Origin: a virus
Length of the DNA stretch: 20,842 nt
IMG/VR virus record: IMGVR_UViG_3300028627_000407
Location: 1-20,842 of that record
Direction: 5' to 3' (one strand)
The notes beneath the pieces were generated by a model, which saw nothing but the letters and a program-made list of their open reading frames with translations, searched no databases and was not told where the DNA came from. A program made the translations under genes and the position numbers. Below, piece by piece: positions 4,067-20,834 of this stretch (the first letter of the stretch is position 1; every line of letters begins with the position of its first letter).

Positions 4067-6922
4067 ATGGACCCCGTGCTTGCAGAAATAGTTGAATTGT
4101 ATCCTTCATTAAATAAAGAACAACAAAAATCCATTACTACAACAGAGGGGCCCCTATTACTTATTGCGGGCCCAGGTACTGGAAAAACTTTAGTTTTAGT
4201 TCTAAGAACACTTTACTTAATTAAAACTGGAAAAGCATTACCCTCAGAAATAGTATTGACAACATTCACTGAAAAGGCTGCCTTTGAATTAAGGGACAGA
4301 GTTAGCCAGATTTCAAGAAAACTAAAAATGAAAGAATCCCTGCATGAACTAAAGATAGGCACGATTCATAGTATATGTGAGAGATTTATTTCTAAAAACT
4401 TATTCTACACTAATTTAAAAAATAATTATATTACTCTTGATGATTTGACTCAATATTTGTTTATCTATGAGCATTTTGGAGATATAGTTGGTGGGGCCAG
4501 AAACAATCTTTATCTTGGAAAGTGGAAGACTAAATCGTCAACTATAAAGGCCATTATACCATTCATTAATAAAATAACTGAGGAGCTGATTGATCCTGAT
4601 CAATTATTAAATTCAAATGATAATTTTGTTAGGGACTTGGGCCTCGCATACAAACAATATAGAAAGCTCTTATTTGAGAATAACAGAATAGACTTTTCCC
4701 ACCTACAGACCGTTTTCTTAGATCTATTAAAAAATGAAACAGTTGGTCCAAAAATAAAGGATAAGATAAAATACATTATGGTCGATGAGTATCAGGACAC
4801 AAACTATGCGCAAGAACAGATAATATTGACATGGGGAAAACCAAATAATAATATTTGTGTCGTTGGAGATGAAGATCAATCTCTTTATAGATTTAGAGGG
4901 GCAACTATTAGGAACATAATTGAATTTCCTTCTCATTTTAAAAATTGTGAAGAGATCCCGCTTCTTACAAACTATAGGTCACATAACAAGATAATTGAAC
5001 GATACAATCGTTTTATGCAAGCCGTAGATTGGGCCGATAAGGATGGAAGATTTTATAGATTTATGGACAAAGAGGTTGTACCTCCCAAAAATACAATATT
5101 TCCAGATTACCCCGCAGTTTTTTCTATATGGGGGAGGAATGAATCTGACGAGGGCCAAAGAGTAGCAGAGATGGTAAAATATCTAAAAGATAAGAATGTT
5201 ATAACAGACTATAGAGATGTGGCACTAATATTAAAAAGTGTCCGAATTGAATCAAGTTGTCAGTACACAGATGCCTTTGATAGATTAGGGATTCCATATT
5301 TTAATCCAAGAGCCAAAGCCTATTTTGAAAATGATGAGATAAAGATGATGTTGGCATGCTTTGCTATGGTATTTGAGTTCATGGGGGAGCATTTAGAAAA
5401 TTATCCTTACCGAAATTATATTTATCAAGGATTTGAATTATTGAAGGATTACATTAAAAGCCCGTTATCTGAGTACATCCAAAGGCGAAATGACCAGATA
5501 AAATCCCTTAATGAAGGCCAAACACTTGATTTATCTATAGGTGATTATTTCTATCAGCTTCTTGCGTACAAGCCGTTTTCTAAATTTTTAAAAGAAGAAA
5601 ACAAGGCTAGAAATTTATCAATATTTTCTTCATTATTACGAAAATTCCAGCAATATTATCATTTTAATATTGTAACTTTCAAAAATAAAGAATTTATCAA
5701 GTTTTATCTATTCGGGAGTTTCTTTAGGTTCTTAATCGATGGTGGCATCGACGAATACGAGGATCCAGACAACCCTTTTCCAAAAGGCCATGTACAGGTG
5801 ATGACAATCCATCAATCAAAAGGATTAGATTTTCCTGTAATTATAGTAGGATCTTTAGCAAGAGGATTTAATACCCAAAAACAGATTGATAGAACTCTAG
5901 GTAGTTTTTATGAAAGAGGATTATTTGAACCTGAGAAGAGAATTACAGATTTTGATAGGGCAAGACATTTCTATGTAGCATTTTCAAGAGCCCAAAAATT
6001 ACTTGTCCTAACTACAACTGATACTCCCCATAGATCATTTGCTCCAATATGGGAAGGTCTTGATCAGTGGCCCCACGTTAAGAGAGAATTACTTACTGCC
6101 CAAAGATTCTCTCCTAAGGATCAATATATACCAAAAAGAACCTTTAGTCTTACTTCAGATATAAACATCTATGAAACTTGCCCTAGACAGTATCAGATGT
6201 ATAAAGAATATAAATTTGAGCCGTCTAGAGTAGGAAGTGTTCTTTTCGGTAGTCTAGTGCACCAGACGATAGAAGATATTCATAGATTTGTTTTAGAGGA
6301 TAGATTGGGCGAGATAACGCCGACTTTAATAGAAGATCTTTACAACGAGAACTACAAAGGATTAATTGCAACTGGGTTAAGACCACTTGCACAAACTCCA
6401 AAAGAAGCTGGCCTCAAACAGGTGCTAACTTACTTTAATCAAAACAAAGATCTAATGGATAGGGTTATTGAAACAGAAGTAGATGTTTCTGTTGAAAAAG
6501 ATAGATATATAATACTTGGAAAAATAGATCTTCTTTTAGGAGAAGACGATAAGGTAGAAATACTAGACTTTAAGACCCAACCAAAACCAAATCTCGATGA
6601 TCCCTTAATTGAAAGATACAAGAGGCAACTATCCTTATATGGGTATATTGTCAATCAAAGATATGGATTTCATCCTGAACGTCTATTGCTATACTGGACG
6701 AGTGAAGAGATAAGAGAAAATGCTTTGATGGAGTTTTCATACAGTAAAGATTATGTAGATGAAGTTGGAAAACACTTTGATTATATTTCAACTTGCATTA
6801 TGGAAAAAAGGTTTGACATGGCTAATCCACCCGATATTTCAAAAATATGTAAAGAGTGTGATTTTAGAACATACTGCTCTAAGGAAGGGGTAATAAATTT
6901 CAAAAGTGAGGATATTGTATGA
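4067..6922 (+). CDS. UvrD/PcrA-type SF1 helicase fused to an AddB/Cas4-like PD-(D/E)XK nuclease with a 4-Cys Fe-S signature
   Basis: Helicase motifs AGPGTGKT, MVDEYQD, VGDEDQSLYRFRGA, TNYRS, MTIHQSKGLDFP and FYVAFSRA. Nuclease motif GKIDLL...ILDFKT. One Cys (YETCPRQY) plus C-x2-C-x5-C (CKECDFRTYC). Confidence 0.93.
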   Translation: MDPVLAEIVELYPSLNKEQQKSITTTEGPLLLIAGPGTGKTLVLVLRTLYLIKTGKALPSEIVLTTFTEKAAFELRDRVSQISRKLKMKESLHELKIGTIHSICERFISKNLFYTNLKNNYITLDDLTQYLFIYEHFGDIVGGARNNLYLGKWKTKSSTIKAIIPFINKITEELIDPDQLLNSNDNFVRDLGLAYKQYRKLLFENNRIDFSHLQTVFLDLLKNETVGPKIKDKIKYIMVDEYQDTNYAQEQIILTWGKPNNNICVVGDEDQSLYRFRGATIRNIIEFPSHFKNCEEIPLLTNYRSHNKIIERYNRFMQAVDWADKDGRFYRFMDKEVVPPKNTIFPDYPAVFSIWGRNESDEGQRVAEMVKYLKDKNVITDYRDVALILKSVRIESSCQYTDAFDRLGIPYFNPRAKAYFENDEIKMMLACFAMVFEFMGEHLENYPYRNYIYQGFELLKDYIKSPLSEYIQRRNDQIKSLNEGQTLDLSIGDYFYQLLAYKPFSKFLKEENKARNLSIFSSLLRKFQQYYHFNIVTFKNKEFIKFYLFGSFFRFLIDGGIDEYEDPDNPFPKGHVQVMTIHQSKGLDFPVIIVGSLARGFNTQKQIDRTLGSFYERGLFEPEKRITDFDRARHFYVAFSRAQKLLVLTTTDTPHRSFAPIWEGLDQWPHVKRELLTAQRFSPKDQYIPKRTFSLTSDINIYETCPRQYQMYKEYKFEPSRVGSVLFGSLVHQTIEDIHRFVLEDRLGEITPTLIEDLYNENYKGLIATGLRPLAQTPKEAGLKQVLTYFNQNKDLMDRVIETEVDVSVEKDRYIILGKIDLLLGEDDKVEILDFKTQPKPNLDDPLIERYKRQLSLYGYIVNQRYGFHPERLLLYWTSEEIRENALMEFSYSKDYVDEVGKHFDYISTCIMEKRFDMANPPDISKICKECDFRTYCSKEGVINFKSEDIV

Positions 6923-8790
6923 GTAAGATAGATATTAAAAAACCAGAGCTAGTTTGGAAAGGTAAATACGATGATGAAGGTAATTTAAAACCAATTGATA
7001 GACCTGGCCCTTATCCTTTCCAAGTTGTAGAAACTATTAATAGTCCTAGAAAAGGAAAAAAATCAGGAGATAACCTTACCTTGTATGATTTCTACGATGT
7101 TGATGAAGGTGATAGCTTTGAAACTGGTTGGAATAACAAGCTGATCTGGGGAGACAACAAACTAGTGATGTCCTCCCTTCTTGAGAAGTTTGCAGGAAAA
7201 ATAGATTTAATCTATATTGACCCCCCGTTTGCTACAGGTGCTGATTTTAGATTGAAAGTACAGATAGGTGAAGAAGGAGAAGAGGTTGAAAAGGAGCATT
7301 CTATTTTGGAAGAAAAGGCTTATCGAGATACGTGGGGGGAAGGTCTTGAATCTTATCTTAATATGATGTATGAAAGATTATATCTAATCAAAGAGTTATT
7401 ATCTGAAAAAGGTTCAATTTATGTTCATTGTGATTGGCATGTGGGACATTATCTTAAATTAATATTAGACGAAATATTTGGAAAAGATAATTTTAAAAAT
7501 CAAATAATTTGGAGATATGGAAAAATGGCTTCAGCCAAAAATAAATTCTTATCCAATCATGATATAATATTTTTATATTCAAATAATAAAGATTCGGTTT
7601 TTAATTCTCAGTTTATAAAACTAGATACACCTATAAAAAGATTAGGCAGAACAGTTAGAGATGGAAAATTAGTAAATTTAAAAGACAATGAGGGAAATTT
7701 AGTATACATAGAAAAAAATGAAAAAATAATCGATGATGTATGGGGAGATATACCAACAGTAATGTATGCTAATCCTGAATATGCAGGATTTTCTACCCAG
7801 AAACCAGAAGGATTATTGAAAAGAATAATACTAACTTCATCAAATGAAGGGGATTTAGTTGCAGATTTTTTTGTTGGCTCTGGTACAACTTTGATTGTTG
7901 CAGAAAAATTGAGGAGAAGATGGATTGGAACAGATCTATCTAGATATGCAGTTCATACTACTCGAAAGAGAATATTAGAAATTCAAAATTCTAAAGATTT
8001 AACAAATGAACAAAAACTATATGATAAGAAAGCTAATCCGTTTGAAATTCTAAATCTAGGTAAATATGAAAGACAATACTGGAAGAGTACTACCTTCAAT
8101 CCAAAAGATTCAATCCAAGCTTATTATGAATACATTTCATTTATTTTAAAATTATACGGTGCAGAGCCTCTAAGTGGATCACAATTTATTCATGGTAAAA
8201 AATCTAACGCCTTAGTTTATGTTGGGTCTATAGATACTCCTGTCACTATAAATGAAATAGCCAACGCAATCTCTGAGACAAAAAAAATGAGGCAAAAAGA
8301 GCTTCACGTTTTAGGTTGGGAATGGGAAATGGGGCTAAACGATGCGATAGACCAAATAGCAAAAAGAGAAAACATTAGTCTAAAACTTTGGATTATACCT
8401 AACGAGGTTTTGGAAAAACAGGCTATTGATAGGGGAGACATAAGATTCTTTGAATTAGCCTATTTCAAACCTGAAATTATTACTTCTGGAAAAGAGGTCA
8501 TAATCGAACTAAAGGATTTTGTTATTCCTCATACTGACTTAATATCTAAAGAAGTAAGAGAAAAAATCAAAAAATGGACTGATTGGATCGATTACTGGGC
8601 AATTGATTTTAATTTTCAAAATGATACTTTTGTTAATAGTTGGGCATCGTATAGAACCAAAAAAGATAGAACTCTGTCCCTTAAGGCCACCTACAAATAT
8701 AAAGAACCTGGGAAATACAAAGTTTTTATTAAAGTAATTGATATCTTTGGAATAGATACCTCTCAAATATATGAGGTGACAATAAAATGA
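6919..8790 (+). CDS. mod: Type III-like R-M methyltransferase (Mod), beta-class amino-MTase with C-terminal extension
   Basis: Catalytic DPPF precedes the SAM motif DFFVGSGTT (beta order); TQKPEGLL motif. ATGA overlaps with the helicase stop and the res start. Confidence 0.9.
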   Translation: MSKIDIKKPELVWKGKYDDEGNLKPIDRPGPYPFQVVETINSPRKGKKSGDNLTLYDFYDVDEGDSFETGWNNKLIWGDNKLVMSSLLEKFAGKIDLIYIDPPFATGADFRLKVQIGEEGEEVEKEHSILEEKAYRDTWGEGLESYLNMMYERLYLIKELLSEKGSIYVHCDWHVGHYLKLILDEIFGKDNFKNQIIWRYGKMASAKNKFLSNHDIIFLYSNNKDSVFNSQFIKLDTPIKRLGRTVRDGKLVNLKDNEGNLVYIEKNEKIIDDVWGDIPTVMYANPEYAGFSTQKPEGLLKRIILTSSNEGDLVADFFVGSGTTLIVAEKLRRRWIGTDLSRYAVHTTRKRILEIQNSKDLTNEQKLYDKKANPFEILNLGKYERQYWKSTTFNPKDSIQAYYEYISFILKLYGAEPLSGSQFIHGKKSNALVYVGSIDTPVTINEIANAISETKKMRQKELHVLGWEWEMGLNDAIDQIAKRENISLKLWIIPNEVLEKQAIDRGDIRFFELAYFKPEIITSGKEVIIELKDFVIPHTDLISKEVREKIKKWTDWIDYWAIDFNFQNDTFVNSWASYRTKKDRTLSLKATYKYKEPGKYKVFIKVIDIFGIDTSQIYEVTIK

Positions 8791-11516
8791 GCGAAGTACC
8801 TCAAAGCATAGTTCATTATGATAATAATATTCCGCTCATTGAGGGGCGAGACCCTACTAAACCGCCTGATTGCCATATTGTAAAGGATTTACCGGGCCAT
8901 TACAAGATAGTAAAGGGTAGACGTAAAAGTTCTACTTTCCTCACAAATAGTATAAGAAAACAGGTAAGCAAGTGGGTAAATGATGGATACCCGGGAGTAA
9001 CAGAGACTACCAAAGAATTATTAACCTTCTGGTTTGAAAGCGACCACATAATCAAAGGTAGACAGTTTAATTTTTGGTTCTGCCAAAGAGAAGCGATTGA
9101 AACATTAATATATTTATTTGAGGTAAAAAAATTCAATGATTTTGAACAAGTTATACATGAATTTGCTCAAAAAGAGATAACTGGAATCCTGGGAAGTTCT
9201 GTAGAAGTTATAAAAAAAATAGGTGGGAGTAGAGACGTCATCCGGTACTTTCCAGAATTAAAACAAATGGGAAATCAAGAAATTCCAGAAGAAGGATTGC
9301 TAAAATATGCATTTAAGATGGCTACAGGCTCGGGTAAAACAATAGTTATGGCCTTAATCATTGTTTGGTCATATTTTAATAATATTAAGGAAAAGGATAC
9401 ACGCTACAGCAACAATTTCTTAATAGTTCCCCCAAACGTAATAGTTTATGAAAGGTTAGCAAGGGATTTTAGAGATAATAAACTCTTTTATGATTTTCCA
9501 TTTATTCCCTCCCCTTGGAAATCATTATGGAATTTAAAGGTTACATTAAGAGACGACGATTCTCCTTTGGCGCCCTCCAGTAATATAATATTGGCAAATA
9601 TCCAGCAGTTATACGAATCAAGAGTTGATGGATGGACTCCAGCGAACATTGCAGAAGCTATATTAGGAAGATCTCCACAAAAGAATTTAACAAAATCTCC
9701 TGTTATGCTCTTAGACAGAATAAAGGATCTCACAAATATCTTAGTTATTAATGATGAAGCGCATCATGTTCATGACACAGAATTAAAGTGGCACGAAACT
9801 CTTATTTCCATCCATAGATCCTTACCAAAGGGAATTACTCTCTGGCTTGATTTTTCTGCTACACCTAAGACCCAAACTGGTGTTTATTACGCTTGGACAA
9901 TAGTTGATTATCCATTGGCCCAAGCTGTAGAGGATAGAATAGTAAAAGCCCCAATAATTGTTCACCGTGTCAATAAAAAAGATCCTATTGAAGTGAGTCA
10001 AGACAATGTCATTGAAAAATATGGAGAATGGTTACTATCATCTATTCACAGATGGAAAGTGCACTATGATTCTTATTTAGGCATGAAAAAAAAGCCGATT
10101 CTATTTATAATGTCTGAAAAATCTGTGTATGCGGATAAGATTGCAGAGTTTATTCAAAATGATAAATCAATATATGATTTCTCAAAGGATGAAATATTAG
10201 TTATTCATACAGATACATCGGGAGATATTAAAAAATCAGATTTAGAACAATTACGACGAGTTGCAAGAGATGTCGATAATCCTACAAGTAAAATAAAAGT
10301 TATTTCGAGTGTTTTAATGCTAAGAGAAGGTTGGGATGTTCAAAACGTTACTGTATGTCTTGGATTACGACCCTATACAGCGCAGGCAAAAATTCTTCCA
10401 GAGCAAACTATTGGAAGGGGCCTTAGAATAATGGGTGGAATAACGCCAGACTATATACAAACACTTGAAGTAATGGGAACAAACGAATTTGAAAGTTTTG
10501 TCAGGAATGAGTTAGAGCAAGAGGGCGTAAACATAGAAACAGTCCATACCCCACCACCTCAGGGTGTAACAATATCTGTAGAGTTATCACGCCTTAAGTA
10601 TGATGTAGAAATTCCACAAATAGGCCTAAGATACAAAAGAAATTATAAGAAATTGTCTGAGATTAATATTAACTCAATTCCAAACATATTCACTTCTGAT
10701 ATTCTAAAAGAGGAGTGGAAATCGACATTAAGAATGGAATTTGCTACAACGGGCACCGATATCCATAAAGAAGACATTGAACACACGGCAGGTTATGAAA
10801 TTAGAGAAAAAATATCCTACATTGTGAACAACGTTATGAAAAAAGCCGGCCTCACTTGCCAGTTTTATGAAATATGTCCTATTGTAGAGGAGTATATCTT
10901 AATTAAATGCTTTGATACAAAGATTGATAGTATTGATTCAATTTGTATTAAAAAGTCGCTAAGTAGGATAGATGTATTAGAAGGAATCATCTCTGTTCTT
11001 GCCCAACATATTGGTGAATTAACCGCAGAAAAGACAGATGTACTTATTTTGCAAAAACCAATTAAACTCTCTGAAACAGAAGTTAGCCCGTGGAATAGAA
11101 AACATGTAAGACTTGATAAAACTATTTTCAATTATGTAGCTGTTTATAATAACTTTGAGGAAGAGTTTGCAACATTCCTTGATAGAAGATTTCTGGACAT
11201 AGAGAGATTTGCTTCACTGGCAACCACAATTTTTAAAATTGATTATCTTAGTTCAAAAGGCGCCACTAGATTTTATCACCCGGACTTCGTTGCCGTGCAA
11301 AATATTGGTGATAAAAAGAAATATTGGATCATAGAAACTAAGGGAAGAGAGTATGAGGATGTCGATAGAAAAGACGAGGCCATAATAAGATGGTGTCAAG
11401 AAGTATCAGAACAAATGGGGCAGTCTTGGAATTACTTAAAAGTTCCACAAGTTAAGTTTGATTACATTAAGGATAGAATTACTAGTTTTGAAAATTTAGT
11501 TAGAAGATTAAGTTGA
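8787..11516 (+). CDS. res: Type III-like restriction subunit (Res): SF2 helicase/ATPase plus C-terminal PD-(D/E)XK endonuclease
   Basis: MATGSGKT, NDEAHH, FSATP, MLREGWDV and EQTIGRGLR; C-terminal YHPDF...IIETKG. Confidence 0.9.
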   Translation: MSEVPQSIVHYDNNIPLIEGRDPTKPPDCHIVKDLPGHYKIVKGRRKSSTFLTNSIRKQVSKWVNDGYPGVTETTKELLTFWFESDHIIKGRQFNFWFCQREAIETLIYLFEVKKFNDFEQVIHEFAQKEITGILGSSVEVIKKIGGSRDVIRYFPELKQMGNQEIPEEGLLKYAFKMATGSGKTIVMALIIVWSYFNNIKEKDTRYSNNFLIVPPNVIVYERLARDFRDNKLFYDFPFIPSPWKSLWNLKVTLRDDDSPLAPSSNIILANIQQLYESRVDGWTPANIAEAILGRSPQKNLTKSPVMLLDRIKDLTNILVINDEAHHVHDTELKWHETLISIHRSLPKGITLWLDFSATPKTQTGVYYAWTIVDYPLAQAVEDRIVKAPIIVHRVNKKDPIEVSQDNVIEKYGEWLLSSIHRWKVHYDSYLGMKKKPILFIMSEKSVYADKIAEFIQNDKSIYDFSKDEILVIHTDTSGDIKKSDLEQLRRVARDVDNPTSKIKVISSVLMLREGWDVQNVTVCLGLRPYTAQAKILPEQTIGRGLRIMGGITPDYIQTLEVMGTNEFESFVRNELEQEGVNIETVHTPPPQGVTISVELSRLKYDVEIPQIGLRYKRNYKKLSEININSIPNIFTSDILKEEWKSTLRMEFATTGTDIHKEDIEHTAGYEIREKISYIVNNVMKKAGLTCQFYEICPIVEEYILIKCFDTKIDSIDSICIKKSLSRIDVLEGIISVLAQHIGELTAEKTDVLILQKPIKLSETEVSPWNRKHVRLDKTIFNYVAVYNNFEEEFATFLDRRFLDIERFASLATTIFKIDYLSSKGATRFYHPDFVAVQNIGDKKKYWIIETKGREYEDVDRKDEAIIRWCQEVSEQMGQSWNYLKVPQVKFDYIKDRITSFENLVRRLS

Positions 11517-12082: not shown

Positions 12083-12229
12083 TTACCAAATAACCCTATC
12101 TCTCTTTCTTTTGCACTTCTTACAAACTAAAAACGTCTTCTCTGTCTTTGGATCAAAACAATAGCGGGCATACATCTCAATCGGCCTTGCCATGACTACC
12201 CCGCACCTAGCACAGTGATATTCCCTCAT
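12083..12229 (-). CDS. 48-aa zinc-finger protein, last gene of the tail operon
   Basis: MREYHCARCGVV...LVCKKCKRKR has two CxxC pairs. ATG 12229 overlaps the upstream TGA as ATGA, so the longer 12322 start is unlikely. Confidence 0.7.
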   Translation of the reverse strand: MREYHCARCGVVMARPIEMYARYCFDPKTEKTFLVCKKCKRKRDRVIW

Positions 12230-12894
12230 GCTTTCATGATCCACGCAACTTCGTAGTACTTTGGCCTTATATCTATCGTAAATCCTGCCACCCTTGTAGT
12301 TGTATCCCCTGCAAAAGTCCAAGATCCAGCTACAGTCTTTGTGTGGCTACCTCCAGTTGCACCAGGATTTGTTGAAGATGTTGTGATCCCCTGCAAGAAT
12401 CGGTCAATAAGATTAGGCGTCCCGTTGTTTCCATCACAAAGAAGCCATCCTGAGGGGATGCTTGTCAAAACTCCACTCCACGCAACAATAACTCCAGGTG
12501 GCACAAATGAGGGTAATCCTGAAATAACATTAGTTATTGAAGAGATTGAACTTGCCCCTGCGACAACCGTTGCAATCAGCATCGCATCGTCTGGCAAAGT
12601 TGCGGAAGTTGAGATTGTGAGCCAGTTGGCCCCGTTGTCAGAATGCAGATAAACATAGTTTGTGCTATTTGCAGTTGCTGTCAAAGATTCGGAGGCATCT
12701 GAAACAACTTGGAACATGCCTCCGGCCGCATCTTTTACATATGCAGCCCCAGCCGCAACGCTAATAGTAAGGCCACTGGCAACTGAAACTGTAAAGCCTG
12801 TCTTTTTACCTTCAGGAAAAAAATCCCCGAAGTATTGCCTGAAATCAGCTGAGGTGATCTTGGTCCCAGCTGATACTTTTTTTGTAAATGTCAT
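12226..12894 (-). CDS. Tail fibre protein with a phage tail-collar domain
   Basis: VPPGVIVAWSG...IPSGWLLCDGNNGTPNLIDRF...GATGG...RPKYYEVAWIMK is the tail-collar signature. GAGGT SD upstream. Confidence 0.88.
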   Translation of the reverse strand: MTFTKKVSAGTKITSADFRQYFGDFFPEGKKTGFTVSVASGLTISVAAGAAYVKDAAGGMFQVVSDASESLTATANSTNYVYLHSDNGANWLTISTSATLPDDAMLIATVVAGASSISSITNVISGLPSFVPPGVIVAWSGVLTSIPSGWLLCDGNNGTPNLIDRFLQGITTSSTNPGATGGSHTKTVAGSWTFAGDTTTRVAGFTIDIRPKYYEVAWIMKA

Positions 12895-12904
12895 GATTAT
12901 ACCT

Positions 12905-13393
12905 CTAAAATTCTATCACATAATAAATAGTCATTGTTTTTGTGTTGCTGAAAGTTTTAGTTGGAGAGATAAGCGAATGGGTGAGAAGATCTGTTTGATT
13001 GGCAGCATAAAGCCCAAGCTCCGCCCACGTACCATAATAATCAGCTTCCGTGTAATCAAAATAATACGTTGCCTCGGATTTGTTTGAATATGTGTTGTTA
13101 TGCAAGCTCCCTGGAACATAAGATTTTAATGATCCTAATTGTGTAGTTAGGGCCAAATCAGTTCCTGCTGGTGTAGTGCTGCCAGTGCCTATCGCCAGCT
13201 TGCCAATCACATGTTTGTTAGCGTCATAGTCTCCAGTTAGCACATCTGCAAGTGCAGCTTTTAGTTTGTTTGTGATCAGATTCTTTTGCCATGAACCCCT
13301 TATGATCTTGTCTCTTTCAAAATCGTATTCTTCGATCTTGAATTTTCCCAGGTACGGATTTTTATCACCCCTCACCAGTTCTATTATGTCCAT
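12905..13393 (-). CDS. Tail-fibre-base/baseplate-associated protein (DUF3751-like), paralogue of 17981-18361
   Basis: NLITN...LAIGTGST.P..TD.AL...AELGLY...K motif set. Start moved to ATG 13393 (GGATGTGA SD-like), overlapping the end of the hub gene. Confidence 0.65.
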   Translation of the reverse strand: MDIIELVRGDKNPYLGKFKIEEYDFERDKIIRGSWQKNLITNKLKAALADVLTGDYDANKHVIGKLAIGTGSTTPAGTDLALTTQLGSLKSYVPGSLHNNTYSNKSEATYYFDYTEADYYGTWAELGLYAANQTDLLTHSLISPTKTFSNTKTMTIYYVIEF

Positions 13394-16300
13394 TTGCTCA
13401 CATCCCATCTCGCTTCGTTGTCATCATATTCGGCCTCATAATCTGCTGCCGCCTCATAAATATTTTCTGATAATGCGATCGTAGGTGTTTCAGTTGCCTC
13501 TTTATAATCTGTTGTCTGCTCCTGTGATTCTAAGATGTTTTTCACTTTCAGCCGTCTAAGCTCGGAAAACAAGTTAGCAAATGCAGAGTAAAAGTCGTCT
13601 GCAGCGGTGCATGTCAAGGTGACTGTTGAAATTTCCCTTTCTCTTATCTCGTAAGTCACTGATAGTATTGTTTGGTCTTCAAGTGACGGCATTTCAGGAA
13701 GGGTTGTAAACTCGATTACTTGCCCGGCCTTCAATCTTTTTCCCGGCGGATTTATCACAATTCTTGATGCATTTTTCAAGGCGTATTCAATTGCCTTTTG
13801 CTGCGCTAAAGTCATTGCAGTGTCTGCCTCCTGGATAGTCAGATCTATAATCGGTATATCGGTGTGGTACTCAAACATCATTGTTTCTGTCGTGGCGCTT
13901 TTTACTATCTGCACCCCATAATAAGTCTTGAAAGCCAGCTTTCCAGTTGCTGCAGTCCAAGATCCAGCAAGAGTTTTGTATTTATGTCCGCTTGCCGTTG
14001 TGTTATTATGCACAACTTTGTAAGTGTCTGTTGCCGTGCCCATTATATTGAAAACGATCCAGTTTGTTTTTGATATGTCAAGCTGAGAATCGATTAATGT
14101 TGTTTTCACCCATCCACCTTCAGTTGAGATATCTTCCTGAGGGATTGATCCAAAGCCAACAATGCTCCCTGTTGGGTTTCCACCATTATCTTCAATTATT
14201 GTGAAGATCAGATCATCAAGGGGATTGCCCACTTTTTTGACATAAACGTCCAGGAACAGAATATTTGATTTTGATGGCGTAAACGTTGAAGCATATGATT
14301 TGTCGTGCAGAGACACTTCAATCGTTGTTGTGGTCTGGCTGAAGTCCAGAAAACCTTGTTTGCCGCCAACAACATAGATCCTGTCAAAGTATTTCATTGC
14401 ATCCCGTTTAATCTTTGCACTTAGTATTTCAGTGCTAGATATTGAGTGATCTGCGGATAGATCTGCAGCATCATAAAAGTGAAGGTCGTCGTTTTCATCA
14501 ATGTAAAAATCAGCGCCCACAAGACTAGAAACTTTATCAATCGCCTGGCCAACATATTCCCATGCAAATGTCATTGAGGGTATTGCTTCAGCAAAAGTTT
14601 CAAGATTAGTTGTTGTTATCTCAGGGCAGTATCTAGCCAAAATATCTGAAACAATTTCATCGGCAGTTTTGTTGTTGTATGTTTCTGCCCCAGATATAGT
14701 CGTTTGCCCAGTCCTGATTGAGCCATAATCTTCCCCTGAAAGTAGAATCTTATTGCTCCTGTATTGATCCAGTTCAAACTCAACTGAAGTGATAAGGCCG
14801 TGGAAGATCTTTGTAGAGGGAGGATCATTCTCATCAACATAGAAGAATACTTCATTTCCTACTTCAAATGTTTCTGATAGGGACCCATCATCATTGTATA
14901 AGCTTATTTCAAAATAATCCGATCTTTTTCCTTTCTCATCTGTGAATCTTGCATACTCAATTTTATCCAAGGCGGTAAGATCTATCTCAATATCGCCAGG
15001 TTGCTCTACAATTATGGTCCAAAATAGAGGAGTTGCTCCAGTGGTTTCACTGTTTATTGATAAGGCCCCATAAGAATTATAATCGATCTGCTCAACATCG
15101 ATAAACTGAAATGCCCCAGAAGATCCAAATGGGATTATCTCAATATCGGTGTCAAAGTCCTGGATAATTATGGAGCTAGAAGAATCTATCTCTATTAGTG
15201 CATGATAAGTAGTTGCAACAGCAATCTCCATTGTGCCAGCACCTGTGGCTTCATTTTTCCCAACAAATGAAGCACTCAATTGGATATCTACTTCTGCGTT
15301 AGAGGCTATTGATTCGCTTAGGATGTATGCGGTGATACTGTTAAAAGTAAGATCCCCTAATCCAATGATGTTCAAGGTATTCTTGAAGTCTGTTATTATT
15401 TCAGCAGTGATCGATCCTGCTCCGGTAAGCTCTACCAAATCGGTGTCAGAATCAATGTCCTGGAGCAGAAGGGATCCATTTGCAGTGTATGAGGTGCCAA
15501 CAATATAATTTGTGTTAGCTACTAACTCTAGAACGCCAGCCCCGAGGATTATAATGTCAAGAGGTGCCCAAAAAGAGTAAACGTTTGTCGAAGCTTTTGA
15601 AATATACTCTATTGACTCCATGTCCTGTATCTGGATTGATCCTACCCCAGTGAAAAGGATCAATTCAATATCATAATCAATATCCTGTATTGTAACTGAA
15701 GAAGCTGCTGTCAAAACGGAGCTGTAAGTATACTCTGCAGTTGTGCTTATCTCTATTGAAGCAAAGGAAGTTATTTCAAGAAGATCATACTTATTCATGT
15801 GTTTTATGAGGTTGACAAAAGACAGCCCAGTTGTTGTTATATTTGAAACATAATTCCCTGTTGCAGATATTGTTACCTTTGCATTGCTTTGATATTCTAT
15901 TAAAGTTGTGGACCCAGAATATTCTTGTAGCTCAAATGATCCAGCGCCCCCAAATGAGACATCAACTACTTTTCCTATTATTGCATCTATCTCAAAAGTC
16001 GATGCACCGATGATGTTTGAAATACTGGCAAGTTGCCTATACCCTAGAGCTTCTGTTGTGCCGGCCCCATCAAAAGACACAGATATGGCCATGCTTGAAA
16101 TCCCAGAGACTACAAATGATCCATAACCTGAAAAGGTTATAATTTCAATGTCAGAGTCGATATCCTGGGAAATGACTGCACCCAGGCTAATGTAATTTAT
16201 GTTGCAAACATAATCTATAACTGTAGCAACTTCAATTGCCGCATAGCTCAGATAAGTGATAGTCTGCTTATATGAAAATGCCGCTGAAGCTGTTATGGCC

Positions 16301-17980: not shown

Positions 17981-18361
17981 TTATGCCCTGGATTCAGTTT
18001 CTTTGATGATTATCTGCAAAGAGTCGCCGTCTTCAACGGCCTTAGTCGCCGAGAACTTGTGTCTCATCAACATGTCCCCCGCAGGATCCCCGTCATCATT
18101 GAAAATTCCAACTTCATTGACTGATAGGCTTCCTGTAAAGGAGAAGGTCTTTGTCCACTTTGCCTTGTAGTCGGCCTCATATTCGCATGTTGCAGCGGCT
18201 CTTGCCCCGCCGTTTGTTGTGATTTCCGTAGTCAAGGCTGTCTGGTCGTTTGCCTCTGCTGTAGTTCCACTACCTAGTGCAATATATGTGAATGGGGCGG
18301 TAGATACACCGTTTAGCAGTTTGGCCTTCATTTCAAGTCCTTTGTTCACGAGTGTTGCCAT
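17981..18361 (-). CDS. Tail-fibre-base protein (DUF3751-like) lacking the N-terminal hairpin
   Basis: TLVNKG...YIALGSGTT...DQTALTTE...NEVGIFN...K pattern; GGAGGA SD. Confidence 0.7.
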   Translation of the reverse strand: MATLVNKGLEMKAKLLNGVSTAPFTYIALGSGTTAEANDQTALTTEITTNGGARAAATCEYEADYKAKWTKTFSFTGSLSVNEVGIFNDDGDPAGDMLMRHKFSATKAVEDGDSLQIIIKETESRA

Positions 18362-18480: not shown

Positions 18481-20343
18481 CTAGAATCCCACCCTGGTGA
18501 TTCTATTGATTCTTTTCATGATTTCATCGGCTATCTTGTCGGGATCGCCGTTTCCAGAAATATTGAAAGTGTTGTTAATCGTGACATTTTTCCCCTGGAG
18601 CTTTGATCCTTCTTTGAAGGCTAGGATATTGTCGTCTGGATGAAAATTCACAATGCTTCCATCCTTCTTTATTAGTGCATCGTTTACGCTCCTAGATATC
18701 TCGCCTGTTGAGTTATTGTAGTATCCTACTAATCCCCCGCCAGCGCTGTTACGGATTGTGTCATAGGTATGCCCACCGCTTGAGAAAGAGTTTGACACGA
18801 ACGCACCACCCCTTTCAGGGCCTTCATAGACTATATCGTTCCCAGCTTGGACCCTCTCCCCTGAAGTGAAAGTCCTGCATCCGCCTCCTCCTCCGCCACC
18901 GGGATTCAACATCTGCCTAACTGTGTTCATTGCCGAGTTCATGTAGTTGATAGCAGATCCTGCAGTCCTCCCAAGCGTATCAACTTCAGTTCCAGTTTTT
19001 GTGGTCTGATCCCGGTATAATTTGAGAAGTTCTGTAGCAGAGAGAACATTTTGAGTGTTGTTTAGGACTGCCAAGGAATTGTCTTGTTTCTTTTCCTTGT
19101 TTTCATTTTCAGCACGCTGGATTTCCCTCAAACGCCCCAAGGCATCTGCGGCATTTTCCGATTCCCCTGGAAGTGTGTTTGGGCTTACCGCCCCTGGGCT
19201 AGTCCATCGGCCTCTTGCAGCTGCTTCGTAGGGGGTATAAGCGCCGGCTTTTTCATACTGCACCTGCTGGCCTGCATAGTCCCATAGGGCCATACCACCT
19301 GGAGTTGTCACCCTCAATCCCATTTCAATGATTTTATCGAGATGCAGATCTTTGATAATAACGCTGATTCTTGAAAGCGCATCCTCAATTATGCCCAAAA
19401 TATATGATACCCGGTCAAAAGCATCGGCCAGTTTTGTGATAGCCTCTTCAGAAGAAGTCACGCCTGCAAGTTTCATTATGACATTGCCCAACTCTGAGCC
19501 AAAACTAATTGAATGCTGCAAAAGGTTCCCAAAAGAATCGACCAGTGGCTGTATTTCACCGGATTTTATCATCTCTGAAATCTTGGCTGCAATGTTTTCT
19601 AATGTTGGCGCTATTGCACCGGTCAGCTCATCCCCGAACAAAGTCTTTATATTCTGGACCTGATTCTCAAAATTTGCAAAGATTCCCGCTGTTGAGTTCC
19701 GTAGCGCCTCTGCGCTTCCGCCAAAAGACTTTTCCAACTGTTTGGCCAGGTAGTCGGCCTTCTGGGCCGCAGTCATTGATTTCATGCTGAGGGCATCAAG
19801 AACGACACCGTTCTGCTCAAGTATTGATGTGCTGCCAGAAAGCGCCATTGTGACCTGTTTTGTTGCAGTTTCAAGGCCGACCCCTTGAGCTGCTGCATAG
19901 TCTTCCGCTGCTGACAAGAGCTTTAGCGATCTTTCATAATCTTTTGTTACGGATATAAGATTGTTGAAGCCCTTCCTGATTTCTGTGTCATCGATGGAAG
20001 AGAGTTCGGAATGCTGGCCTATCACATTTTCAATCTGCTTTGAGTAGGACTGCATCCCTGCATTTTTCAGGAGATTTTGGGTCTGTGACTGGAACTTTGA
20101 CTGCTCTAATGAGAGCTTTACCATCTCCCGATTCAAGTTCTGCACTGCGGCGATGCCATAAGTTGTGATAGCCGTTGCCATTGTACCTACGGCGACTTCT
20201 GCTGCATGGCCCAAAGAATGCATTGCCCCGCCTGCTTTGGATGTGCCCTTTTCAAGGCCGCCGAGTGCCGACTCCACGTTTTTTATAGGGCCAGACGCTC
20301 TGTCTTCAGCAGTGACTGTTATCTTGACGTTTTGCTCTGCCAT
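18481..20343 (-). CDS. Tape measure protein (620 aa)
   Basis: N-terminal VKITVTAEDRASGPI; long Ala/Gly/Leu helical body; C-terminal FHPDD...VTINNTFNI.G..DPDKIADEI. Directly follows the chaperone pair. Confidence 0.9.
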   Translation of the reverse strand: MAEQNVKITVTAEDRASGPIKNVESALGGLEKGTSKAGGAMHSLGHAAEVAVGTMATAITTYGIAAVQNLNREMVKLSLEQSKFQSQTQNLLKNAGMQSYSKQIENVIGQHSELSSIDDTEIRKGFNNLISVTKDYERSLKLLSAAEDYAAAQGVGLETATKQVTMALSGSTSILEQNGVVLDALSMKSMTAAQKADYLAKQLEKSFGGSAEALRNSTAGIFANFENQVQNIKTLFGDELTGAIAPTLENIAAKISEMIKSGEIQPLVDSFGNLLQHSISFGSELGNVIMKLAGVTSSEEAITKLADAFDRVSYILGIIEDALSRISVIIKDLHLDKIIEMGLRVTTPGGMALWDYAGQQVQYEKAGAYTPYEAAARGRWTSPGAVSPNTLPGESENAADALGRLREIQRAENENKEKKQDNSLAVLNNTQNVLSATELLKLYRDQTTKTGTEVDTLGRTAGSAINYMNSAMNTVRQMLNPGGGGGGGCRTFTSGERVQAGNDIVYEGPERGGAFVSNSFSSGGHTYDTIRNSAGGGLVGYYNNSTGEISRSVNDALIKKDGSIVNFHPDDNILAFKEGSKLQGKNVTINNTFNISGNGDPDKIADEIMKRINRITRVGF

Positions 20344-20551
20344 GATGCTCTTTTCTCTTTTTGATCAGCTCTTCAGCCTGAATTCTCATCTCTTCTTGGG
20401 TGTCTCCCATAGGATTCTGGTACAGGACATATCCTCTCACAAGTCTCCTTTTTTCAAGGACCGTGAGCTTTGGAATCTCCCATATCTTATACCCAAGCTG
20501 GTGCAGCACCTGCTCCTCAAGGAGCCTTGCCTTTGCTTCCAGGCTCGGGGC
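20306..20551 (-). CDS. +1-frame extension of the tail assembly chaperone (gpGT-like; fused product about 175 aa)
   Basis: The frame opens right after a TAA just upstream of the shift site and reads APSLEAKARLLEEQVLHQLGYKIWEIPKLT...; its 3' end overlaps the TMP start. Confidence 0.7.
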   Translation of the reverse strand, partial: APSLEAKARLLEEQVLHQLGYKIWEIPKLTVLEKRRLVRGYVLYQNPMGDTQEEMRIQAEELIKKRKEHHGRAKRQDNSHC

Positions 20552-20834
20552 GAAAGGATTCTTTTATGTCGCTAATGTCAAGGAGCTTTTGGACTAGATT
20601 GGCTATTGCCTTTGTTTTCCCAAACTTTTTGATTTCATCAGGTGATAGTTTAGGCTCAACTATATGGGCCGAGAGGATATCGTATCCTTTTTGAGGGTCT
20701 GAGAGCAGGGTTATCTCCCCCTCAGGGATTGGTATGACCTTGGCTTCCTTGCCTGGCTCAATCTCAATTAGTATTGCTTTCAACTCACCCTTCTCATCCC
20801 GCTCATGCAAAAAATATGATTTTTCAACTATCAT
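20517..20834 (-). CDS. Tail assembly chaperone (gpG-like), 105 aa
   Basis: Positioned upstream of the TMP with an overlapping second ORF. The start is in a TAATG overlap with an upstream stop (20834-20836). Confidence 0.75.
   Translation of the reverse strand: MIVEKSYFLHERDEKGELKAILIEIEPGKEAKVIPIPEGEITLLSDPQKGYDILSAHIVEPKLSPDEIKKFGKTKAIANLVQKLLDISDIKESFRPEPGSKGKAP
20550..20558 (-). other. Candidate +1 ribosomal frameshift site TCC TTT CGC
   Basis: In-frame UCC_UUU_CGC near the end of gpG. tRNA-Phe re-pairing from UUU to UUC enters the +1 frame of the downstream ORF. Confidence 0.72.

What the first reader, a model, noticed from the sequence alone, without database searches (positions are those of the whole stretch)
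20306..20834. +1 (not -1) programmed frameshift joining the tail chaperone pair at UCC_UUU_CGC
Seen: the second ORF is in the +1 frame and opens just before TCC TTT CGC (20558-20550). Slippage gives 94 + 81 = 175 aa (...DIKESF-APSLEAKARLLEEQVLHQ...). Established: lambda-type G/GT chaperones usually use -1 X XXY YYZ sites, and UCC_UUU_CGN is the influenza PA-X +1 motif. As I recall, UUU_CGN has been proposed for haloarchaeal tailed-virus chaperones. Inference: the same recoding operates here in an AT-rich, apparently non-halophilic archaeal virus.
Basis: partly seen in the sequence, partly recalled or inferred. Interest (0 to 1): 0.7.

Follow-up and report, generated by a model that had tools for sequence, protein, structure and literature searches.

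The report
+1 frameshift in archaeal tail chaperone
A tailed virus of a methanogen-like archaeon most likely makes its longer tail-assembly chaperone by a +1 ribosome slip at UCC_UUU_CGC, the influenza PA-X motif already proposed but never tested for salt-loving archaeal viruses; this is a well-supported new example, not a new mechanism.

Summary
On the minus strand, ORF1 (20834-20517, 105 aa) is overlapped by a +1-frame ORF (open 20563-20306). In-frame TCC TTT CGC lies at 20558-20550, and a slip there gives 94+81 = 175 aa.

The pair sits between a tail-tube gene and a tape-measure-like gene. ORF1 has the tail-chaperone fold.

In 37 distinct relatives (60-99% nt identity), GAA TCC TTT CG is invariant while nearly every other conserved codon varies synonymously. 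The Arg codon is always CGN, and CGC/CGT are the rarest Arg codons of the putative host.

ORF2 is under purifying selection as strong as ORF1 (dN/dS about 0.08). It has no conserved start codon, and two lineages have none at all. The ORF1 stop moves, which excludes a stop-dependent site.

A distant homologue reaches the same T domain in the -1 frame behind an A10 run. No stimulatory RNA structure was found.

The virus is archaeal: its capsid matches only archaeal viruses, and it is binned in mcrA-bearing 'Thermococci' MAGs. HF1-group haloviruses carry in-frame TTT CGC, proposed as their +1 site in 2020.

Verdict: new member of a known, still untested kind. No protein evidence exists.

The parts
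20517..20834 (-). ORF1, the G-like tail assembly chaperone (105 aa, P0001), from ATG 20834 to TGA 20519-20517
   Evidence: Searches give the ORF. The AF2 model has pLDDT 84. Its best PDB matches are YqbN 3klu (Z 6.4) and the HK97 tail assembly chaperone 2ob9 (Z 5.8). dN/dS is 0.078. Nine of 53 wider-family members hit phrog_4976 'tail assembly chaperone'.
20550..20561 (-). Proposed +1 shift cassette GAA UCC UUU CGC. UUU (20555-20553) is the P-site slip codon, CGC (20552-20550) the rare A-site codon, and UCC (20558-20556) the E-site codon.
   Evidence: GAA TCC TTT CG is invariant in 37 distinct relatives. The Arg codon is CGC in 13, CGT in 23 and CGA in 1, and never AGR. In the putative host, CGC is 1.6% and CGT 3.7% of Arg codons.
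20517..20563 (-). Overlap window in which both the ORF1 frame and the +1 frame are open. The shift must happen here.
   Evidence: In the 12 codons after TTT, dN/dS is 0.34 in the +1 frame and about 1.1 in frame 0.
20306..20551 (-). T-like part: 81 codons of the +1 frame plus stop TGA 20308-20306. It is translated only as the C-terminal extension of the 175-aa fusion (P0002).
   Evidence: dN/dS is 0.077. There is no conserved start codon. It is homologous to the -1-frame ORF of L116 (BLASTP 4e-5).
20507..20509 (-). GTG, the only early canonical start codon in ORF2 of this window. It is not conserved, and GAGGAG lies only 3 nt upstream.
   Evidence: Real genes of this virus have 5-10 nt spacing. 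At this position relatives carry GTA, ATA, ATT, ATC, GTT or TTA.
18481..20343 (-). Tape-measure-like gene (620 aa). Its start overlaps the end of ORF2 by 38 nt.
   Evidence: The nearest protein-atlas clusters are all tape measure proteins (cosine 0.97). The homologous position in L116 holds a clear tape measure protein (phrog_9959, 5e-60).

Best explanation
ORF1 and ORF2 are the G and T parts of a lambda-type tail assembly chaperone pair in a tailed, probably non-contractile, virus of a Methanofastidiosales-like methanogen.

Most ribosomes translate ORF1 to its TGA and make a 105-aa chaperone. A minority pause with tRNA-Phe(GAA) on UUU in the P site, because the A-site codon CGC is very rare in this host. 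The tRNA then re-pairs one base forward on UUC, a better G:C match. Decoding resumes at GCC in the +1 frame and yields a 175-aa G-T fusion (...KESF-APSLEAK...). The UCC codon before the slip codon probably helps, as it does in influenza PA-X. No downstream RNA structure appears to be involved.

Shown here: the gene arrangement, the chaperone fold of ORF1, coding selection on the +1 frame without a start codon, and nucleotide-level invariance of the motif.

Inferred: that the slip is ribosomal, that it is +1 rather than -2, that it occurs exactly at UUU_C, that its efficiency is low, and that the fusion bridges tape measure and tail tube as in lambda.
For: 1. Synteny. The order is tail tube (PF18906, 2.9e-15), ORF1, ORF2, then a 620-aa tape-measure-like gene.
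2. Fold and family. The top four fold matches stand out at Z 4.3-6.4; the top two are YqbN (Z 6.4) and the HK97 tail assembly chaperone (Z 5.8). PHROG 'tail assembly chaperone' is hit by 9 of 53 wider-family members.
3. All 46 distinct relatives, from about 70 loci in independent assemblies, keep ORF2 in the +1 frame.
4. Among about 50 conserved, degenerate codon columns in 37 sequences (mean nt identity 74%), all but five show more than one codon. The five are K5, the consecutive E92-S93-F94 (GAA TCC TTT), and G102, which lies in the dual-coding overlap. R95 is always CGN, whereas R12 mixes CGG, AGG and CGT.
5. ORF2 has dN/dS 0.077, equal to ORF1. A wrong-frame control gives 2.8.
6. The conserved KARLLEEQ stretch lies upstream of any start codon in many lineages. 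L020 and L045 have no ATG/GTG/TTG anywhere in ORF2.
7. The ORF1 stop lies 10 codons further downstream in six distinct sequences of several lineages, yet the motif stays.
8. CGC and CGT occur at 0.75 and 1.7 per 1000 codons in the host MAG, with a single tRNA-Arg(GCG) found.
9. In-frame TTT_CGN is absent from other long ORFs of the virus: 0 observed against 3.7 expected.
10. The distant homologue L116 has the same G (BLASTP 2e-6) and T (4e-5) parts, with T in the -1 frame behind GCA AAA AAA AAA G, next to a clear tape measure gene.
11. The same in-frame TTT CGC occurs in the Hafunaviridae chaperone genes annotated as +1 joins.
Against: - There is no protein, RNA or ribosome data. No RNA sequencing run holds the sequence.
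- +1 frameshifting has never been demonstrated experimentally in Archaea (PMC8211752).
- The most distant +1-frame clades (L021 type at 51% identity, L072 at 46%) lack the motif. Instead they carry GGAGGT or GAGGT, 8 nt, then TTG in the +1 frame, so there T could be started independently.
- Some relatives seem to start ORF1 itself at ATC, ATA or CTG. This weakens arguments that rest only on the absence of canonical start codons.
- No in-frame fused G-T homologue was found.
- Host assignment rests on binning and on capsid relatedness. Three other bins holding this virus are bacterial.
Confidence: 0.8

Rival explanations
1. ORF2 is made as a separate protein. It initiates at GTG 20509, or reinitiates there after termination at the ORF1 TGA 8 nt upstream, and no fusion is made.
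For: The window has GTG 20509 preceded by GAGGAG. The distant clades L021-type and L072 have a good ribosome-binding site plus TTG in the +1 frame. Near-cognate starts may be tolerated for ORF1 in this virus group.
Against: The codon at 20509 is GTA, ATA, ATT, ATC, GTT or TTA in relatives, which fits a V/I/L position rather than a start. L020 and L045 have no canonical start at all. The +1 frame is under protein-level selection upstream of that codon: KARLLEEQ carries many synonymous changes that also destroy the GAGGAG. The 3-nt spacing is shorter than at any real gene start of the virus, which use 5-10 nt.
Confidence: 0.06
2. A ribosomal shift into the same frame occurs, but at another place or in another way. 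Options are +1 at CCC_G (20549-20546), a stop-stimulated +1 at CCU_UGA (20522-20517), or a -2 slip as in phage Mu.
For: All of these would open the same frame, and the +1 and -2 frames are equivalent. CCC_N and stop-adjacent sites are known +1-prone contexts in bacteria and eukaryotes (my knowledge; review PMC5009743).
Against: The codon after CGN is CCC, CCT, TCC, TCT or GCC, so it is not conserved. The ORF1 stop lies 10 codons further on in L019, L045, L054, L055, L060 and L061. Synonymous changes in the +1 frame already occur before the stop. After a -2 move from UUU or UCC, no anticodon re-pairing is possible (inspection). The only invariant nucleotides between the opening of the +1 frame and KAR are GAATCCTTTCG.
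Confidence: 0.08
3. The frame change happens in the mRNA through transcriptional slippage or editing, not on the ribosome.
For: The distant homologue L116 has an A10 run at which polymerase slippage is plausible.
Against: The window has no run longer than A4 or T3 in the overlap. The A4 run is lost in L016-type relatives, which read ATC AAG GAA. The conserved element is a mixed-base motif.
Confidence: 0.03
4. The split is an assembly error or a decaying gene, and ORF2 is not expressed.
For: None beyond the bare fact of a frame break.
Against: The same frame break appears in about 70 loci from IMG/VR, JGI, ENA and MAG assemblies. dN/dS is 0.077 on ORF2.
Confidence: 0.01

Closest known systems
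HF1-group haloarchaeal myoviruses (Hafunaviridae: HSTV-2, HF1, HF2, HRTV-5, Serpecor1, Hardycor2). A +1 frameshift at TTT-CGC in their tail assembly chaperone genes was proposed by Dyall-Smith et al. 2020 (PMC7230728) and by Pietila/Sencilo 2013.
   Same: [quoted passage not shown] Both have in-frame UUU_CGC a few codons before the first ORF's stop. HSTV-2 even has the full UCC_UUU_CGC. In both, the site sits in a perfectly conserved stretch. Both are archaeal viruses, and both lack experimental proof.
   Different: No detectable sequence homology links the chaperones (BLASTP E 2.3 and 5.7, hhalign probability 0.2%). The haloviruses are contractile-tailed viruses of GC-rich halophiles, where UUU is the rare codon and the site is 1-6 codons from the stop. 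Here the host is AT-rich, so UUU is common and CGY is the rare codon. The stop is 10-20 codons away, and no sheath gene was seen.
Influenza A virus PA-X +1 frameshift site UCC_UUU_CGU (Firth et al. 2012, PMC3498833), and UUU_CGN in plant amalgaviruses
   Same: The nine-nucleotide motif is identical apart from the wobble base of the Arg codon. The proposed logic is also the same: P-site tRNA-Phe slips UUU to UUC while a rare CGN codon waits in the A site. A low-abundance trans-frame product is expected, and no 3' structure is needed.
   Different: PA-X uses eukaryotic ribosomes on an RNA virus and makes a host shut-off nuclease. Here archaeal ribosomes translate a structural-assembly gene of a dsDNA virus.
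Lambda gpG/gpGT and the conserved tail-chaperone frameshift of long-tailed phages (Levin 1993; Xu, Hendrix, Duda 2004)
   Same: Gene position, sizes, overlap architecture and a startless second ORF all match. ORF1 has the chaperone fold (HK97 chaperone Z 5.8). The distant homologue L116 uses the classical -1 A-run.
   Different: The direction is +1, not -1, and there is no X XXY YYZ heptamer in the window.

Membership tests
G/GT-type tail assembly chaperone pair (Xu, Hendrix, Duda 2004) | Located between the major tail/tube gene and the tape measure gene | tested here: met
   The upstream 329-aa gene in relatives is PF18906 Phage_tube_2 (2.9e-15). The downstream 620-aa gene is nearest to tape measure clusters. 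The homologous locus L116 has a tube gene (phrog_290) and a tape measure gene (phrog_9959, 5e-60).
G/GT-type tail assembly chaperone pair (Xu, Hendrix, Duda 2004) | Second ORF overlaps the 3' end of the first in another frame and has no start of its own | tested here: met
   The +1 frame is open from 20563 and ORF1 stops at 20517. No start codon is conserved, and L020 and L045 have none at all.
G/GT-type tail assembly chaperone pair (Xu, Hendrix, Duda 2004) | [quoted passage not shown] | tested here: not met
   The frame is +1 and the overlap holds no heptamer. The distant homologue L116 does have GCA AAA AAA AAA G with T in the -1 frame. A few phages are known to use -2 or +1 (PMC5009743).
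G/GT-type tail assembly chaperone pair (Xu, Hendrix, Duda 2004) | First ORF has the tail assembly chaperone fold or family | tested here: met
   The model has pLDDT 84. An unbiased search of 48,161 chains gives 3klu YqbN (Z 6.4), 2ob9 HK97 tail assembly chaperone (Z 5.8), and next unrelated rows at 2.7 or less. Named viral fold hits are mostly tail assembly chaperones. Nine of 53 family members hit phrog_4976. ORF1 itself has no direct Pfam or PHROG hit.
G/GT-type tail assembly chaperone pair (Xu, Hendrix, Duda 2004) | Two products in a fixed ratio, both needed for tail assembly and absent from virions | not testable with these tools
   This needs protein work on an uncultured virus-host pair.
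UCC_UUU_CGN / UUU_CGN +1 ribosomal frameshift site (PA-X type; proposed for HF1-group haloviruses) | In-frame UUU followed by CGN, with the extension ORF in the +1 frame | tested here: met
   TTT is 20555-20553 and CGC 20552-20550. The arrangement is invariant in 37 relatives.
UCC_UUU_CGN / UUU_CGN +1 ribosomal frameshift site (PA-X type; proposed for HF1-group haloviruses) | UCC as the preceding (E-site) codon | tested here: met
   TCC appears in 37 of 37 sequences, although TCC is only 8-12% of Ser codons. Ser6 of the same protein uses 4 different codons.
UCC_UUU_CGN / UUU_CGN +1 ribosomal frameshift site (PA-X type; proposed for HF1-group haloviruses) | The A-site CGN codon is rare (slowly decoded) in the host | tested here: met
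   In the host MAG G001, CGC is 1.6% and CGT 3.7% of Arg codons and AGR is 87%. One tRNA-Arg(GCG) gene was found. The host link rests on binning in two mcrA-bearing MAGs and on capsid relatedness.
UCC_UUU_CGN / UUU_CGN +1 ribosomal frameshift site (PA-X type; proposed for HF1-group haloviruses) | Conservation of the motif at synonymous sites | tested here: met
   E92, S93 and F94 each use a single codon, whereas all but two other conserved degenerate columns (K5 and G102) vary.
UCC_UUU_CGN / UUU_CGN +1 ribosomal frameshift site (PA-X type; proposed for HF1-group haloviruses) | Trans-frame peptide spanning the site is detected | not testable with these tools
   No proteome or RNA data are available.
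Stop-codon-stimulated +1 frameshift (RF2 prfB, antizyme type) | The shift codon lies directly before the 0-frame stop codon | tested here: not met
   The stop is 10 codons after the conserved motif, and 20 codons after it in six distinct sequences of several lineages.
-2 frameshift (phage Mu tail chaperone type) | P-site, or P- and A-site, tRNAs can re-pair two bases upstream | tested here: not met
   In GAA UCC UUU CGC, a -2 move puts tRNA-Phe on CCU and tRNA-Ser on AAU, so neither re-pairs (inspection).
Transcriptional slippage | Homopolymer run of about 6 or more bases at the frame change | tested here: not met
   The longest runs in the overlap are A4 and T3, and A4 is not conserved.

The most novel reading that the evidence does not exclude
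UUU_CGN, with UCC in front, may be a general +1 recoding signal for archaeal ribosomes. On this reading it was recruited independently in two unrelated chaperone families, the Hafunaviridae of GC-rich halophiles and this family of AT-rich methanogen viruses. Within this one homologous family, evolution has switched between -1 slippage on an A-run (L116), +1 slippage at UCC_UUU_CGY (main clade), and possibly a separately initiated T protein (L021 and L072 clades). If so, the family is a natural experiment on how interchangeable these solutions are, and the best comparative case for +1 frameshifting in Archaea, where none has been demonstrated.
Probability: 0.45. Interest if true: 0.6.

Novelty: new member of a known kind. 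Interest (0 to 1): 0.45.

Why it matters
Only one programmed frameshift, a -1 event in a Saccharolobus fucosidase gene, has been shown experimentally in Archaea. +1 frameshifting there is known only as an annotation in HF1-group haloviruses.

This locus adds a second, unrelated archaeal virus family with the same motif. The comparative evidence is much deeper:
- 37 distinct sequences are available.
- The second ORF has no start codon.
- The ORF1 stop codon moves between lineages.
- A homologue uses -1 instead.

In this host the 'hungry codon' logic is clean, because CGY is about the rarest codon. The case therefore supports the idea that UUU_CGN is shift-prone on ribosomes of all three domains. 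It also gives a compact cassette of about 12 nt to test in genetically tractable archaea.

For annotation, the T-like ORF in these viruses, and probably in many archaeal viral contigs, should be joined to the upstream chaperone gene.

Tried and rejected
DNA for the protein clusters P0012, P0017, P0019-P0021, P0024, P0037, P0061 and P0077 could therefore not be read directly. Their C-terminal (N/S)FR is known only at the protein level. Scans of IMG/VR with P0024, P0037 and P0061 found nothing.
- ORF1 and ORF2 gave no direct Pfam or PHROG hits. No Pfam family matched any of the 53 wider-family members.
- ORF1 had no match in 50,697 phage records.
- A search for in-frame fused G-T proteins found none: no homologue longer than 125 aa in the near-length search and none in the 'longer' search with the T part. 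This is weak evidence.
- Homology to the Hafunaviridae chaperones was not significant. The best local alignment does lie in register across the junction.
- No conserved RNA structure lies downstream. The consensus energy is -2.8 kcal/mol with no covariation, and the single-sequence z-score is -0.09.
- No RNA holder was listed among public runs.
- The alignment A4 was too diverse for a locus scan.
- The Methanofastidiosa virus vir519 has a related capsid. It has an unrelated single small ORF before its tape measure gene, so it gives no information on the motif.
Full report
**The observation**

On the minus strand, ORF1 runs from ATG 20834 to TGA 20519-20517 and encodes 105 aa. A second frame, displaced by +1, is open from 20563 to TGA 20308-20306. 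It opens just after TAA 20566-20564. Its end overlaps by 38 nt the ATG 20343 of a 620-aa gene.

TCC TTT CGC lies in the ORF1 frame at 20558-20550. All coordinates are confirmed.

The 'genome' behind the window is only this 20.8-kb viral record. ORF1 starts 8 nt from its end. Relatives with upstream DNA show the tail-tube stop codon, a GGTGAGG ribosome-binding site and the same start, so ORF1 is complete.

**What the genes are**

A 92%-identical relative lies on a 39.5-kb contig. Its gene order is: large terminase, a portal-MuF fusion, prohead protease, major capsid protein, a tail tube protein (PF18906, 2.9e-15), ORF1, ORF2, and the 620-aa gene. The nearest protein-atlas clusters of the 620-aa protein are all tape measure proteins.

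ORF1 has no direct Pfam or PHROG hit. Three other lines identify it:
- A profile search found a wider family of 100-140-aa proteins. Nine of 53 members match the PHROG 'tail assembly chaperone'.
- With that alignment the ORF1 model reaches pLDDT 84.
- A Foldseek-independent search of 48,161 PDB chains puts YqbN (Z 6.4) and the HK97 tail assembly chaperone (Z 5.8) on top. Unrelated rows score 2.7 or less.

Residues 93-104, after the proposed shift site, are modelled as disordered. The site therefore sits right at the end of the folded domain.

**Comparative test of the frameshift**

Scans of IMG/VR, JGI/ENA metagenomes and GTDB genomes returned about 70 loci, which collapse to 46 distinct sequences. 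Every one has ORF2 in the +1 frame.

The main clade holds 37 distinct sequences. Their pairwise nucleotide identity is 60-99%, with a mean of 74%. In this clade:
- The codons E92-S93-F94 are GAA TCC TTT without exception.
- R95 is always CGN (13 CGC, 23 CGT, 1 CGA), never AGR.
- All but two of the other roughly 50 conserved, degenerate codon columns show two to six codons. For example F8 uses TTT and TTC, and R12 uses CGG, AGG and CGT. The two exceptions are K5 and G102, the latter in the dual-coding overlap.

ORF2 is a real coding region. Its dN/dS is 0.077, the same as ORF1 at 0.078, against 2.8 for a wrong-frame control. In the 12 codons after TTT, the +1 frame (0.34) is better conserved than frame 0 (about 1.1).

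ORF2 has no conserved start:
- The GTG at 20509 is GTA, ATA, ATT, ATC, GTT or TTA elsewhere, which fits a V/I/L position.
- The invariant KARLLEEQ stretch lies upstream of it. That stretch carries many synonymous changes, which also destroy the GAGGAG.
- L020 and L045 have no ATG, GTG or TTG anywhere in ORF2.
- The GAGGAG-to-GTG spacing of 3 nt is shorter than at any real start of this virus, which use 5-10 nt.

The ORF1 stop is displaced 10 codons downstream in six distinct sequences of several lineages. This excludes a stop-stimulated site. The codon after CGN varies, which excludes CCC_G. A -2 slip allows no re-pairing, and there is no homopolymer for transcriptional slippage. No conserved downstream RNA structure exists.

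**A homologue that uses -1**

L116 and L117 are distant relatives. Their ORF1 matches at 32% identity (BLASTP 2e-6). They keep the same neighbourhood, with a tube gene (phrog_290) and a clear tape measure gene (phrog_9959, 5e-60).

There the homologous T domain (LH..GY...IP.LT, BLASTP 4e-5) lies in the -1 frame behind GCA AAA AAA AAA G, a classical slippery run. Many distant family members end in ...LKKK, which would fit such sites.

So the G-T architecture is ancestral to the family. The clade of the window reaches T by the opposite direction of slip.

**Host and mechanism**

Two of the five MAGs that hold this virus are 'uncultured Thermococci archaeon' bins of 1.4-1.6 Mb. Both carry mcrA, which points to Methanofastidiosales-like methanogens. 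Their tRNA set is of the archaeal G34 type. The other three bins are bacterial and are probably binning noise.

Among 50,697 phage records, the capsid protein matches only archaeal viruses. The best match is a Methanofastidiosa virus, followed by haloarchaeal siphoviruses.

In the host MAG, CGC is 1.6% and CGT 3.7% of Arg codons (0.75 and 1.7 per 1000 codons). TCC is 8% of Ser codons and TTT is 72% of Phe codons. One tRNA-Arg(GCG) gene was found.

This fits the PA-X model. The ribosome waits for a scarce Arg-tRNA, and tRNA-Phe(GAA) moves from its wobble pair on UUU to a perfect pair on UUC. In-frame TTT_CGN is absent from the other long ORFs of the virus, with 0 observed against 3.7 expected. 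That is weak but consistent with avoidance.

**What is already known**

UCC_UUU_CGU is the experimentally mapped +1 site of influenza PA-X (PMC3498833). Reviews list HSTV-2 as 'very likely +1' (PMC5009743). They also state that only one -1 event has been proven in Archaea (PMC8211752).

Dyall-Smith et al. 2020 (PMC7230728) proposed the TTT-CGC motif for the HF1 group. I verified it in the sequences:
- HSTV-2 has in-frame AAG TCC TTT CGC, with an annotated +1 join.
- HRTV-5, HF1 and Serpecor1 have AAG TTT CGC AGA TAG, with the +1 ORF continuing.

No sequence homology between the two chaperone families could be shown. The shared motif is therefore either convergent or too old to trace.

**Caveats**

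Nothing here shows the protein. The two most divergent +1-frame clades (L021 type, L072) lack the motif. They carry GGAGGT or GAGGT, 8 nt, then TTG in the +1 frame, so T may be made separately there.

Some relatives have ATC, ATA or CTG where ORF1 should start. Non-canonical initiation may therefore occur in this group. The case against an independent ORF2 start thus rests mainly on three points: the protein-level conservation upstream of any candidate start, the nucleotide-level invariance of the motif, and the -1 homologue.

**Verdict**

This is a new, well-documented member of a known but experimentally untested kind.

Noticed in passing
L003:3990-4010, L016:2985-3005 and others (position equivalent to window 20834): The ORF1 start codon is ATG or GTG in most relatives. 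It is ATC (L003, L005, L044), ATA (L016, L019, L054) or CTG (L050, L053, L055) at the same place behind the same GGTGA-type ribosome-binding site. In L003 an in-frame TGA lies directly upstream, so a near-cognate start seems unavoidable there.
   Followed up: partly
L021:3001-3600, L022, L063-L071; L072:84-700: The two most divergent clades with T in the +1 frame lack TCC TTT CGN. Instead they have GGAGGT or GAGGT, 8 nt, then TTG in the +1 frame, four codons before the conserved KAR. This could mean independent initiation of the T protein or a different, unidentified shift site.
   Followed up: partly
L116:1217-1728 (IMG/VR 3300022858_000591), L117: This distant homologue of the chaperone pair has the T domain in the -1 frame behind a run of ten A. 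Ribosomal -1 slippage and transcriptional slippage are both possible there.
   Followed up: partly
L076:10525-13332 (minus strand; near-identical relative of the window's virus): A 935-aa protein combines a portal domain, a Mu F-like head morphogenesis domain and a C-terminal ADP-ribosyltransferase exoenzyme domain (PF03496, 2.1e-8).
   Followed up: no
window 4067-11516 versus L075:5553-14709: The window carries a UvrD/PD-(D/E)XK helicase-nuclease plus a Type III Mod/Res cassette (GC 0.31-0.34). The 92%-identical relative carries three different large genes in the same slot, and an MvaI/BcnI endonuclease with methylases elsewhere. The slot is a variable defence cargo site.
   Followed up: partly
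window and L075+L076, all ORFs of 120 aa or more: In-frame TTT followed by CGN does not occur in any other long ORF. The counts are 0 against 3.7 expected in the 39.5-kb relative and 0 against 1.5 in the window. This may reflect avoidance of an accidental shift site.
   Followed up: partly
window 12226-13408 and 17981-18361 (minus strand): Three small tail genes hit tail-fibre and collar families: phrog_5417 and phrog_4176 twice, Pfam Gp80, and the collar fibre phrog_1800. The 126-aa and 167-aa proteins look like paralogues flanking the 1510-aa hub or fibre gene.
   Followed up: no
L085:6322-8419 (BK063666.1, Methanofastidiosa virus vir519): This virus has a related capsid (31% identity). It has only one small, unrelated ORF (94 aa) between its tube-like gene and its 610-aa tape-measure-like gene. 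No T-like ORF was seen, so its chaperone arrangement is different.
   Followed up: partly
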